Below, in pieces: positions 30,554-31,909 of a stretch of DNA of 32,000 bases (the first letter of the stretch is position 1; every line of letters begins with the position of its first letter). The notes under the pieces were generated by a model, which was given only the letters and a program-made list of their open reading frames with translations, was not told the origin of the DNA and did not search any database. Source of the stretch: Geotalea daltonii FRC-32 (GTDB taxonomy: Bacteria; Desulfobacterota; Desulfuromonadia; Geobacterales; Geobacteraceae); the NCBI RefSeq assembly GCF_000022265.1, contig NC_011979.1, positions 1,440,001-1,472,000 on the forward strand, read 5' to 3'. A program made the translations under genes and the position numbers.

Positions 30554-31909
30554 ATGATGAATCAATGCTTAATTGGCACCCTGGTCCTTCTTTCGGCTGC
30601 TGCCCTTCTGGCCGGCCCGGCATCTGCCGGCGGCAAGGCGGGAATCGGCTTGCAGGAGACCATTGCTGCAAAATCGGGCAAGGCGAAAACCCTTGCCGAA
30701 CTGGCAAAGATGTACGATTCCAGCTCCTGCATCGAATGCCACCAGGATAAACATGACGAAGCGCAGAAATCCATACATTCGCGCTCCATTTATGGAACGG
30801 GAAGAACGGCGTCGACCATAATGTCCGCCATCGAGAATGGCCTTATGGAACAGCCCTATTCTGGGGTCAAGAGCCCGAAGGATGTCAAGGTGGAACACCT
30901 GATGGGGTGTGCCAAGTGTCACCTGCCGCAGCTGTCCGATGCCGAGGACTCGGTGGCCCAGGAGCTCGTCAGCACCCTCTACAGCTGGAAGGATGCCCTG
31001 AAGAAGAAGGACAAGGCAGTGGCCAAGCGCGAGGAAGACAAACTCAAGAGCGTCAACATCAACTGTCTGGTCTGCCACAATCGCAATGCCATCACCCACA
31101 AGTGGCAGGACGGCTATCCCAAGGCGGGAGTGGTCTACGGATCGAAGGACGGTGATCATCCTTCAGACAAGTTCCCCAAGATGGCAATCAGCCCCATCAT
31201 GAGCGAATCGATCCAGTGCGGTCAATGCCATGGTATGGGTCCGAATATGGAGCTCGATGAGCCGACCCAATGCTGTACCTCCTACGGTAGTTATCTCTGG
31301 TCCTACAAATCGGAAGGTGGCCAGGAGAGCTGCCAGGAATGCCACATGAAGAAGAGCAAGCTCGGCCACAACATCCAGTCCTACCGTGATCCGGCCATGG
31401 CCAAGGCAGCGGTGGATTTCAAGATGGAATCCTACGGCTATCACTGGCGCGACGGCGCCGAAATAAAGCCTAAGGCGGTGGTCAAGGTAGAAATGACCAA
31501 CCGGGCCGGACACTCCATCCCCGATGGCTGACCGACCCCCAACCGACTGGTTCTGTCGGTCATAGCAAAAACGAAGGATGGCAAGGAAGTTTTCAACCAG
31601 GAAAAGATTTACATGCCGGTTCCGCAGCAGTTGGGCCGGGGTGACCGGATGGGGCGCGGCCCCTACGAGAAGAGCGGCATCATTGAGGATACCGGCTTAC
31701 CGCCGGGAAAAACGGTCCATGAAAGATTCGACATCATGTTCCCCCTTGAGGAGATGGAGGTTGACGGCAAATTTGTCAACAAACCGACCTCCTACGATCT
31801 GGATGTGACCGTTCAGCTCTGGTATCTCCCCTTCGGCACGAAGAAAACCGATCCATTCCTCTGGCACGAAGCGAGCAAGACAATCAGCATCAGCAAGAGC
31901 GGCAAATAG
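30554..31909 (+). CDS. Pentaheme c-type cytochrome read through one in-frame TGA (31529-31531), probable selenoprotein (ExtKL-like). The conservative alternative is two CDS, 30554-31531 and 31613-31909.
   Basis: GGGGAGAA lies before ATG 30554. The signal peptide is LIGTLVLLSAAALLAGPASAGG. Five CxxCH motifs are present (CIECH, CAKCH, CLVCH, CGQCH, CQECH). Both track ORFs are in the same frame, and the 81 nt between them has no other stop. A hairpin lies 10 nt after the TGA. Confidence 0.6.
31542..31560 (+). promoter_or_regulatory. SECIS-like stem-loop downstream of the in-frame UGA
   Basis: ACCGAC-UGGUUCU-GUCGGU has a 6-bp stem and a 7-nt loop. The loop GGUU lies about 21-24 nt from the U of UGA. 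An alternative 8-bp pairing joins TGACCGAC (31529-31536) with GTCGGTCA (31555-31562). Confidence 0.5.

What the first reader, a model, noticed from the sequence alone, without database searches (positions are those of the whole stretch)
30554..31909. Single in-frame UGA links a pentaheme cytochrome c to a heme-free C-terminal domain: probable selenocysteine with a SECIS-like hairpin
ORFs 30554-31531 and 31613-31909 share a frame (offset 1059 nt, which is 353 codons). The only stop between them is TGA 31529-31531. The intervening 81 nt translates cleanly (PTPNRLVLSVIAKTKDGKEVFNQEKIY) with the same codon style as the flanks. ATG 31613 has only a weak AGGAAAA upstream. Ten nt after the TGA lies an ACCGAC/GUCGGU stem whose loop UGGUUCU places G/U residues about 21-24 nt from the UGA. 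That is the geometry I recall for the E. coli fdhF-type bacterial SECIS. The local context would be ...NRAGHSIPDG-U-PTPNRLVL. From memory, Geobacter ExtK and ExtL are now annotated as one (seleno)protein, ExtKL. If that holds here, the Sec sits exactly at the junction between the heme domain and a Cys-free ~126-aa domain. Its chemical role is not obvious and would be worth studying.
Basis: partly seen in the sequence, partly recalled or inferred. Interest (0 to 1): 0.85.

Follow-up and report, generated by a model that had tools for sequence, protein, structure and literature searches.

The report
Known selenoprotein cytochrome MccSep (ExtKL)

Summary
ORF 30554-31531 has five CxxCH motifs, and a single TGA (31529-31531) joins it in frame to 125 further codons ending at TAG 31909.

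Read through, the protein is 77% identical over 440 aligned residues, across the UGA, to G. sulfurreducens MccSep (PDB 9WT8/9WT9). It scores 606 bits (cut-off 250) on NCBIfam NF040886, "multiheme c-type cytochrome (seleno)protein ExtKL". The window is from Geotalea daltonii FRC-32, and extH, extI and extJ lie just upstream.

All 80 species loci I fetched keep TGA at this codon inside an invariant PDG-U-PTPNR. Two full-length homologues have Cys there.

It is invariant in 29 relatives and lies in the stretch of strongest synonymous-codon constraint in the gene.

Two points need correcting:
- The Sec's role is known: it is the catalytic nucleophile next to a His/Cys-ligated heme (Mihara et al. 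2026).

selABCD could not be searched in this genome. Published papers report them for FRC-32.

Verdict: real, correctly interpreted, already known.

The parts
30554..31909 (+). mccSep / extKL coding sequence: 451 codons from the first ATG, with the annotated start at the second ATG, 30557. UGA is read as Sec at codon 326 (325 from the second ATG). The final stop is TAG 31907-31909.
   Evidence: for the frame. PDB 9WT8/9WT9 MccSep, E = 1e-243; 77% identity over 440 aligned residues. NF040886, 605.9 bits against a cut-off of 250, covering residues 28-446. P0001 is 100% identical and named Geotalea daltonii FRC-32.
30554..30631 (+). Probable periplasmic signal peptide (MMNQCLIGTLVLLSAAALLAGPASAG). 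The cleavage site is inferred, not predicted with a tool.
   Evidence: Sequence. The orthologue's mature N-terminus, EKAGIGWQETIVAKS (residues 26-40), was found by Edman sequencing (PMC13510729) and aligns with GKAGIGLQETIAAKS here.
30728..30742 (+). Heme 1 motif CIECH (residues 59-63)
   Evidence: Invariant in alignment A1.
30803..30805 (+). Arg84 codon, equivalent to R83 of G. sulfurreducens MccSep, where substrate anions bind
   Evidence: Role taken from PMC13510729.
30908..30922 (+). Heme 2 motif CAKCH (residues 119-123). His123 corresponds to H122, the proximal ligand of the active-site heme.
   Evidence: Role.
31064..31078 (+). Heme 3 motif CLVCH (residues 171-175)
31217..31231 (+). Heme 4 motif CGQCH (residues 222-226)
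31271..31273 (+). Cys240 codon, equivalent to C239, the distal ligand of heme 2. The neighbouring Cys241 corresponds to the non-essential C240.
   Evidence: Invariant in all 16 sequences of A1, including those without Sec or Cys at the Sec site. Role.
31331..31345 (+). Heme 5 motif CQECH (residues 260-264)
31529..31531 (+). UGA selenocysteine codon (U326, equivalent to U325 of MccSep), within IPDG-U-PTPNR
   Evidence: TGA sits at this codon in 80 of 80 species loci and in 3 metagenome copies. Cys occupies the column in P0099 and P0106. The Sec peptide of the orthologue is described.
31542..31560 (+). SECIS-type hairpin S1: 5' arm ACCGAC 31542-31547, loop UGGUUCU 31548-31554, 3' arm GUCGGU 31555-31560
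   Evidence: -8.8 kcal/mol, z = -3.47. RNAalifold finds it independently in 29 relatives, with 100% of cells paired and one A-U to G-U change. It lies in the window of lowest synonymous diversity in the whole gene. The bSECIS criteria are quoted.
31529..31562 (+). Alternative fold S2. UGACCGAC (31529-31536) pairs with the same 3' arm, GUCGGUCA (31555-31562), around a small AACC/GGUU hairpin. S2 competes with S1 and buries the UGA.
   Evidence: -15.5 kcal/mol, z = -3.55. Only partly conserved: the second copy of CCGAC is CCCAC in 5 of 29 relatives, and the two outermost pairs exist in 6 of 29.
31670..31672 (+). Lys373 codon, equivalent to K372, which contacts Sec through a water molecule
   Evidence: Role.
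31940..31969 (+). Intrinsic-terminator-like hairpin (10 bp, 8 G-C) followed by T7, 31 nt after the TAG stop
27131..28459 (+). extH, rhodanese-like protein (context)
   Evidence: NF040901, 404 bits against a cut-off of 200.
28526..29731 (+). extI, outer-membrane porin (context)
   Evidence: NF040900, 717 bits against a cut-off of 150.
30097..30501 (+). extJ, small periplasmic protein (context). The public gene call, 110 aa, would start at 30169.
   Evidence: NF040942, 65.9 bits against a cut-off of 52.5. Gene call.
24359..25330 (-). Divergent LysR regulator, typical of extHIJKL clusters (context)
   Evidence: NF041036, 361 bits against a cut-off of 210. PMC6148476 notes a LysR gene upstream on the opposite strand of all such clusters.

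Best explanation
The region 30554-31909 is one gene: the Geotalea daltonii FRC-32 orthologue of mccSep (extKL, gsu2937-2936 in G. sulfurreducens).

**Translation (inferred here, shown in the orthologue).** Translation does not stop at UGA 31529-31531. SelB carrying Sec-tRNA(Sec) is recruited by the hairpin 31542-31560 and inserts selenocysteine. The product is a pre-protein of about 450 residues that is exported to the periplasm.

**Architecture (shown by homology).** An N-terminal helical domain carries five c-type hemes. A C-terminal Ig-like beta-sandwich starts near residue 287.

**Chemistry (taken from the orthologue's structure and mutants).** The Sec lies in a loop of the beta-sandwich and reaches into the distal pocket of heme 2. 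That heme is ligated by His123 and Cys240. The selenolate attacks polysulfide, or selenite less efficiently. The adduct is passed to the heme-ligating Cys, and electrons from the heme chain cleave the Se-S-S bridge and release sulfide. This makes the enzyme the terminal reductase of elemental-sulfur respiration.

**Context.** extH (rhodanese), extI (porin) and extJ lie upstream in the same orientation. They may import and hand over the sulfur or selenium substrate, but that role is not shown.
For: **Identity**
- PDB 9WT8/9WT9 MccSep matches at E = 1e-243 in one stretch spanning the UGA. Identity is 77% overall and 94 of 125 residues after the UGA.
- NF040886 ExtKL scores 606 bits against a cut-off of 250.
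- R84, H123, C240, U326 and K373 are all in place.
- A 100% identical N-terminal part is named G. daltonii FRC-32.
- extH, extI and extJ sit upstream with a divergent LysR gene, and extMNOPQS lies downstream in L001.

**Recoding**
- TGA, never TAA or TAG, sits at this codon in 80 of 80 species across several phyla, inside an invariant PDG-U-PTPNR.
- Cys occupies the column in P0099 and P0106.

**SECIS**
- The hairpin is recovered by RNAalifold and is 100% paired in 29 relatives.
- Codons +3 to +10 after the UGA have a mean codon entropy of 0.23 bits against 1.12 gene-wide, the lowest of 88 windows.
- At these sites Arg is CGA in 29 of 31 sequences (4% of Arg codons elsewhere in the same genes), Ser is TCG in 31 of 31 (18% elsewhere) and Val is GTT in 28 of 31 (16% elsewhere).
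- All four bSECIS criteria are met, and the geometry matches fdhF.

**Experiments on the orthologue**
- A single 49-kDa band, the Sec peptide by mass spectrometry, 0.96 Se per subunit, polysulfide reductase activity, inactive U325A/C and C239H variants, and a 1.75 A structure (PMC13510729).

**Prior listing of this very gene**
- Fujita et al. 2007 include 'Gfrc' (Geobacter sp. FRC-32) in their alignment of this selenoprotein candidate (PMC1914089).
Against: - Nothing was measured in G. daltonii itself.
- selA, selB, selC and selD are not in the window, and the rest of the genome could not be searched. Their presence rests on literature statements (PMC1914089, given as 'data not shown'; PMC2398784; PMC2432076).
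- No Rfam family matches the hairpin.
- The stem shows no compensatory covariation in its clade. It is simply invariant, so the RNA evidence is synonymous constraint, not covariation.
- A more stable alternative fold, S2, competes for the same 3' arm, so which structure SelB sees is not settled.
- Fujita et al. 2007 could not find a SECIS computationally.
Confidence: 0.95

Rival explanations
1. Two separate genes. ExtK, a 325-aa cytochrome, ends at a true UGA stop, and ExtL (98 aa) starts independently at ATG 31613. This is how older annotation has it.
For: Public gene calls split the locus into 324-aa and 98-aa products. An AGGA lies upstream of ATG 31613. Fujita et al. 2007 kept 'a highly conserved operon' as an alternative.
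Against: The 27 codons between the TGA and the ATG are conserved as protein in 80 species, and PTPNR is invariant. Uninterrupted homologues align straight through, with the Met internal to them. The stop is TGA in 80 of 80 species. In the orthologue, an antibody raised against the ExtL part detects only a 49-kDa band, and a peptide spans the UGA. The UGA would also cut the beta-sandwich domain in two.
Confidence: 0.02
2. The UGA is read through by a near-cognate or suppressor tRNA that inserts Trp, Cys or Arg. No selenium is involved.
For: Sequence alone cannot tell which residue is inserted. No Rfam SECIS model matches.
Against: The orthologue holds 0.96 Se per subunit, the mass of its peptide fits Sec, and U325C is almost inactive. 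A SECIS-type hairpin under strong synonymous constraint sits at the canonical distance. FRC-32 is reported to encode a SelD that is itself a selenoprotein (PMC2398784).
Confidence: 0.02
3. A pseudogene or a sequencing error created the stop.
For: None specific.
Against: The identical TGA is present in three independent metagenome assemblies of the same sequence and in 80 other species. Both halves are under purifying selection.
Confidence: 0.005

Closest known systems
MccSep (= ExtKL, GSU2937-GSU2936) of Geobacter sulfurreducens PCA; PDB 9WT8, 9WT9, 9WTA-C; Mihara et al., Sci Adv 2026 (PMC13510729)
   Same: Same length (450/451 aa) and 77% identity. It has five CxxCH motifs, the same PDG-U-PTPNR Sec loop, and the same His/Cys ligands of heme 2. 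Arg and Lys sit at the active site, there is a C-terminal beta-sandwich, and the extHIJ-KL gene order with a divergent LysR gene is shared.
   Different: A different species, with 23% of residues differing (for example R317 against H316, just before the Sec loop). An extra unassigned small ORF lies between extI and extJ. Nothing has been measured for this orthologue.
Escherichia coli fdhF SECIS (bacterial SECIS prototype)
   Same: A hairpin inside the coding sequence just 3' of the UGA. The loop motif is GGU(U)C, at nt 21-25 from the U of UGA here and at nt 22-25 in fdhF. It meets the bSECIS model for loop size, stem length, G in the first two loop positions, spacing and free energy.
   Different: The stem is a perfect 6 bp with no bulged U, the loop is 7 nt instead of 4, and there is no extended lower helix apart from the competing S2 fold. 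SelB binding has not been tested.
His/Cys-ligated multiheme sulfur enzymes TsdA and SoxAX
   Same: A c-type heme with a Cys distal ligand used for sulfur-sulfur bond chemistry (comparison made in PMC13510729).
   Different: No sequence relationship was detected here (Pfam gives only generic cytochrome domains). Those enzymes have no selenocysteine and run in the oxidative direction.
Full-length ExtKL-like homologues without Sec or Cys (e.g. P0072-P0084, P0100)
   Same: About 50% identity over the whole length, five hemes, and the heme-ligating Cys conserved.
   Different: Gly, Val, Ile, Leu or Ala occupies the Sec column, and the flanking sequence is PGSxST rather than PDGUPT. They therefore probably lack the Sec-dependent chemistry. 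One sits in tandem with a Sec-type gene in L041.

Membership tests
MccSep / ExtKL multiheme cytochrome c selenoprotein (NCBIfam NF040886) | Scores above the curated equivalog cut-off over the full length | tested here: met
   605.9 bits against a cut-off of 250; residues 28-446 match profile positions 17-422 of 423.
MccSep / ExtKL multiheme cytochrome c selenoprotein (NCBIfam NF040886) | Five conserved CxxCH heme-binding motifs | tested here: met
   At residues 59, 119, 171, 222 and 260. All are invariant in A1.
MccSep / ExtKL multiheme cytochrome c selenoprotein (NCBIfam NF040886) | Sec (UGA) or Cys at the conserved site after PDG | tested here: met
   TGA 31529-31531 within IPDG-U-PTPNR. The same codon is TGA in 80 of 80 species, and Cys occupies the column in P0099 and P0106.
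MccSep / ExtKL multiheme cytochrome c selenoprotein (NCBIfam NF040886) | His/Cys ligation of heme 2 (H122/C239), plus R83 and K372 | tested here: met
   H123, C240, R84 and K373 align with the residues of PDB 9WT9. This shows residue identity only; ligation itself was not observed.
MccSep / ExtKL multiheme cytochrome c selenoprotein (NCBIfam NF040886) | C-terminal Ig-like beta-sandwich that carries the Sec loop | tested here: met
   The AF2 model has strands 287-300, 303-316, 331-339 and onwards, with pLDDT of 78-90 in most of these blocks and U326 in the loop between them. The overall model is poor (pLDDT 60). There is 75% identity to the solved domain.
MccSep / ExtKL multiheme cytochrome c selenoprotein (NCBIfam NF040886) | Periplasmic export signal | tested here: inconclusive
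   The hydrophobic N-terminus ending in ASA-GG aligns with the cleaved signal of the orthologue. No signal-peptide predictor was available.
MccSep / ExtKL multiheme cytochrome c selenoprotein (NCBIfam NF040886) | extH-extI-extJ upstream and a divergent LysR regulator | tested here: met
   NF040901, NF040900, NF040942 and NF041036 all score above their cut-offs. The cluster is described in PMC5877670 and PMC6148476.
MccSep / ExtKL multiheme cytochrome c selenoprotein (NCBIfam NF040886) | Selenium in the protein; polysulfide/selenite reductase activity | not testable with these tools
   Shown only for G. sulfurreducens.
Bacterial SECIS (bSECIS consensus model as summarised in PMC13188914) | Apical loop of 3-9 nt on an upper stem of 4-16 bp | tested here: met
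   7-nt loop UGGUUCU and a 6-bp stem.
Bacterial SECIS (bSECIS consensus model as summarised in PMC13188914) | G in one of the first two loop positions, usually followed by G or U | tested here: met
   The loop is U-G-G-U-U-C-U, and these bases are invariant in 29 relatives.
Bacterial SECIS (bSECIS consensus model as summarised in PMC13188914) | 16-37 nt between the UGA and the apical loop | tested here: met
   16 nt (31532-31547), at the lower limit.
Bacterial SECIS (bSECIS consensus model as summarised in PMC13188914) | Free energy of -7.5 kcal/mol or lower | tested here: met
   -8.8 kcal/mol for the hairpin alone.
Bacterial SECIS (bSECIS consensus model as summarised in PMC13188914) | Selection on the RNA beyond the protein code | tested here: met
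   Lowest synonymous diversity in the gene, with rare codons fixed. There is no compensatory covariation within the clade.
Bacterial SECIS (bSECIS consensus model as summarised in PMC13188914) | Binds SelB and directs Sec insertion | not testable with these tools
   Needs a reporter or binding assay.
Rfam SECIS families | Match to a curated covariance model | tested here: not met
   No hit at gathering thresholds in the window, and none up to E = 10 in 31400-31700 apart from a chance lncRNA match. Bacterial SECIS elements are too varied for this to count against function.
Sec-decoding organism | selA, selB, selC (tRNA-Sec) and selD in the genome | not testable with these tools
   They are not in the 32-kb window, and the rest of the genome could not be searched. 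Literature: FRC-32 is among the organisms said to 'possess selenocysteine insertion machinery' (PMC1914089). Two selD loci are listed for it (PMC2432076), one of them a NifS-SelD fusion with CxxU (PMC2398784).

The most novel reading that the evidence does not exclude
Two side readings are not excluded, and I could not find either described.

(a) The SECIS of the Geobacter/Desulfuromonas clade may be a two-state element. The 3' arm GUCGGU can pair with either of two CCGAC copies. One pairing gives the SelB-type hairpin. The other is more stable and buries the UGA. The balance between them could tune Sec insertion against termination.

(b) ExtH and ExtJ both end in a conserved Gly-Cys-COOH. These tails could form a periplasmic persulfide or selenosulfide relay that hands substrate to the Sec/heme site of MccSep.
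Probability: 0.2. Interest if true: 0.45.

Novelty: already known. Interest (0 to 1): 0.12.

Why it matters
It matters mainly as an annotation point. Older public records still split this gene into a 324-aa "cytochrome c, 5 heme-binding sites" and a 98-aa hypothetical protein. The correct product is one selenoprotein.

Biologically, it places the recently proven Sec- and heme-dependent polysulfide reductase of elemental-sulfur respiration in Geotalea daltonii, a subsurface metal- and uranium-reducing bacterium. That implies a selenium requirement for sulfur respiration in this organism.

It opens no new question.

Tried and rejected
- **Rfam.** The scan gave no SECIS match, either at gathering thresholds over the whole window or at E up to 10 over 31400-31700. 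I do not count this against function, because bacterial SECIS elements are diverse.
- **First fold.** Folding a 71-nt slice with flanks gave z = 0.06. Folding the element itself gave z of about -3.5.
- **A second Sec in ExtH.** ExtH ends ...GGGC-TGA-SGGTA-TGA, which resembles the GCUG tail of thioredoxin reductase. I rejected this because orthologues end GGGC followed by TAA, TAG or TGA, with unrelated sequence after the stop.
- **Other TGA-joined open stretches.** There are 27 in the window. None is backed by a start codon, a family match or a public gene call. This includes the frame-1 stretch ahead of extJ and the stretch after ORF 22424-22825.
- **Distant Sec-type clade.** RNAalifold found no consensus structure for it, because the pairing register shifts between subgroups. 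A hand-specified structure was 86.7% paired, with weak covariation.
- **Direct search for selA/B/C/D in G. daltonii.** This was not possible. The single genome-contig scan went on MccSep relatives, and no close SelB or SelD query was available.
- **Supplementary tables of PMC13510729.** They are not held as text.
- **AF2 model.** Overall confidence is low (pLDDT 60). I used only its well-scored beta-strand layout and ran no fold search.
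Full report
**1. The observation**

ORF 30554-31531 encodes 325 residues with five CxxCH motifs, at residues 59, 119, 171, 222 and 260. 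It ends at TGA 31529-31531. The same frame stays open for 125 more codons to TAG 31907-31909, and those codons contain ATG 31613 and no Cys. The hairpin ACCGAC/GUCGGU with loop UGGUUCU lies at 31542-31560, 10 nt after the TGA.

The ORF geometry alone is not remarkable in this G+C-rich window. There are 27 pairs of open stretches joined by one TGA. The significance comes from homology.

**2. What it is**

With the UGA read through, the protein matches the chains of PDB 9WT8/9WT9, "Multiheme cytochrome c selenoprotein (MccSep)", at E = 1e-243. The match is one uninterrupted stretch from residue 12 to 451. Identity is 77% overall and 94 of 125 residues after the UGA.

It scores 605.9 bits, against a cut-off of 250, on NCBIfam NF040886, "multiheme c-type cytochrome (seleno)protein ExtKL". 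That match covers residues 28-446.

The N-terminal part is 100% identical to a protein that NCBI names from Geotalea daltonii FRC-32, found on a 4.30-Mb contig (lineage).

The neighbours fit the published cluster:
- extH (27131-28459), extI (28526-29731) and extJ (30097-30501) all score above their curated cut-offs.
- A divergent LysR regulator lies at 24359-25330.
- A metagenome contig with the same sequence continues into two multiheme cytochromes, a Rieske protein, a cytochrome b, a small protein with no Pfam hit and a further c-type cytochrome. This fits the published extMNOPQS order.

**3. Evidence that the UGA is decoded**

One scan of species-representative genomes returned 80 loci. They come from Geobacterales, Desulfuromonadales, Desulfobulbales, Nitrospirota, Vicinamibacteria and Gemmatimonadota, among others. 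All 80 have TGA at this codon, never TAA or TAG, inside an invariant PDG-U-PTPNR.

Full-length database homologues of about 450 aa align straight through the site. Two have Cys there (P0099 and P0106, PDGCPT). The others have Gly, Val, Ile, Leu or Ala. The Met of ATG 31613 is an internal residue of a conserved Y-M-P motif.

In G. sulfurreducens the matter has been settled by experiment (PMC13510729):
- An antibody against the downstream part sees one 49-kDa band.
- The peptide VEMTNHAGHSIPDGUPTPNR was found by mass spectrometry.
- There is 0.96 Se and 4.9 Fe per subunit.

The window encodes VEMTNRAGHSIPDG-U-PTPNR.

**4. The hairpin**

Folded alone, it gives -8.8 kcal/mol (z = -3.47). UGA plus 34 nt gives -15.5 kcal/mol (z = -3.55, 0 of 200 shuffles).

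The relatives whose protein reads ...LVLSV number 31 species, grouped by amino acids and not by the RNA motif. Their 29 distinct sequences were aligned. All 174 pair cells are paired, with one A-U to G-U change and no compensatory change.

An invariant stem neither supports nor refutes a structure, so I tested synonymous constraint.
- At conserved amino-acid columns the mean codon entropy of the gene is 1.12 bits.
- The lowest of 88 seven-codon windows starts 3-4 codons after the UGA, at 0.23 bits.
- Four of the six zero-entropy columns in the gene are codons +4, +6, +8 and +9.
- Arg +5 is CGA in 29 of 31 sequences, although CGA is 4% of Arg codons elsewhere in the same genes.
- Ser +9 is TCG in 31 of 31 (18% elsewhere), and Val +7 is GTT in 28 of 31 (16% elsewhere).

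The element meets all four published bSECIS criteria: loop of 3-9 nt, stem of 4-16 bp, G in the first two loop positions, spacing of 16-37 nt, and free energy of -7.5 kcal/mol or lower. The spacing, 16 nt, is at the lower limit. Its loop places GGUUC at nt 21-25 from the U of UGA. E. coli fdhF, fetched for comparison, has GGUC at 22-25. No Rfam model matches.

Two caveats apply:
- A more stable alternative fold uses a second CCGAC copy (31532-31536) and buries the UGA. It is only partly conserved.
- The more distant Sec-type clade (46 species) uses a different hairpin, about 6 nt further 3'.

**5. How it works**

The chemistry is taken from the orthologue, not tested here. MccSep is a periplasmic homotetramer. 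Each subunit has a helical cap with five hemes and an Ig-like beta-sandwich stem. Heme 2 is ligated by H122 and C239. U325 sits in the distal pocket of heme 2. U325A, U325C and C239H nearly abolish polysulfide and selenite reduction, and the gene is needed for S0 respiration. The window protein has the equivalent H123, C240, U326, R84 and K373.

**6.

The role of the Sec is known. The Sec is also not at a domain junction. An AF2 model, poor overall (pLDDT 60) but with pLDDT 78-90 in most of the strand blocks, starts the beta domain near residue 287. It places U326 in the loop between strands 303-316 and 331-339. So the UGA cuts the Ig-like domain in two; it does not separate two domains.

**7. 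Sec machinery**

There is no tRNA and no sel gene in the window, and the rest of the genome could not be searched. The literature says:
- FRC-32 is among the organisms stated to possess the insertion machinery (PMC1914089).
- It has two selD loci (PMC2432076).
- One of these is a NifS-SelD fusion with a CxxU active site (PMC2398784).

**8. Novelty**

The family was predicted in silico in 2007, and Geobacter sp. FRC-32 ("Gfrc") was already in that alignment. It was named ExtKL, with the Sec noted, in 2018. It has a curated NCBIfam model and is listed among prokaryotic selenoproteins. It was characterised structurally and enzymatically in 2026. The finding is correct and already known.

Noticed in passing
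window 28445-28459 (ExtH C-terminus) and 30487-30501 (ExtJ C-terminus); orthologues in L004-L049: ExtH ends ...GGSGGGC and ExtJ ends ...ELQGC. A C-terminal Gly-Cys is kept in every ExtH tail recovered (9 loci) and in 31 upstream ExtJ-like ORFs. The stop codon that follows varies (TGA, TAA, TAG), so the Cys really is the last residue. Two accessory proteins with a terminal Cys beside a polysulfide reductase suggest a sulfur relay. I found no mention of this in the papers I read.
   Followed up: partly
window 29792-30118 (+): An extra small ORF lies between extI and extJ (108 aa; the public gene call is 101 aa). It has a signal-peptide-like N-terminus and no Pfam or NCBIfam match. Published descriptions of the G. 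sulfurreducens cluster list only extJ in this position.
   Followed up: partly
window 31529-31562: CCGAC occurs twice (31532-31536 and 31543-31547), and both copies can pair with the single GUCGG at 31555-31559. This gives two mutually exclusive folds: -8.8 kcal/mol for the SECIS-type hairpin and -15.5 kcal/mol with the UGA paired. The Pro +1 codon is CCG in 26 of 31 clade members, which fits some selection for the second fold.
   Followed up: partly
L016, L025-L083 (alignment A3), first 48 nt from the UGA: Sec-type genes of Desulfobulbales, Nitrospirota and others lack the Geobacter-type hairpin. They have a different stem-loop about 6 nt further 3', with a UGGAU or UGUAU loop. A few have compensatory changes that include amino-acid changes, for example L069 and L077 (Val to Ile, Thr to Ser). 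So the SECIS has been remodelled between clades while PDG-U-PTPNR stayed fixed.
   Followed up: partly
P0072-P0084, P0100, P0102, P0109, P0110, P0120; L041 around 2517 and 3919: Some full-length homologues of about 450 aa (about 50% identity) have Gly, Val, Ile, Leu or Ala at the Sec position but keep the heme-ligating Cys. In the Gemmatimonadota MAG L041, an Ile-type copy sits directly upstream of a Sec-type copy. NCBI names one of them (P0100) ExtKL (seleno)protein although it has neither Sec nor Cys at the site.
   Followed up: partly
window 25402-26907 (+): A protein with three rhodanese domains (501-aa ORF; public aa) lies just upstream of extH. It has below-threshold similarity to 'rhodanese-related (seleno)protein' NF041203 (86.5 bits against a cut-off of 115). 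No in-frame UGA was seen.
   Followed up: no
window 31940-31969 (+): A strong terminator-like hairpin (10 bp, 8 G-C, then T7) lies 31 nt after the extKL stop. It suggests that extHIJKL is transcribed separately from the downstream extMNOPQS genes in this species.
   Followed up: no
window 23222-24408 (-): mobB and mobA (molybdenum cofactor guanylyltransferase) genes sit next to the LysR regulator. In L001 a molybdopterin oxidoreductase with an Fe-S subunit lies about 8 kb downstream of extKL.
   Followed up: no
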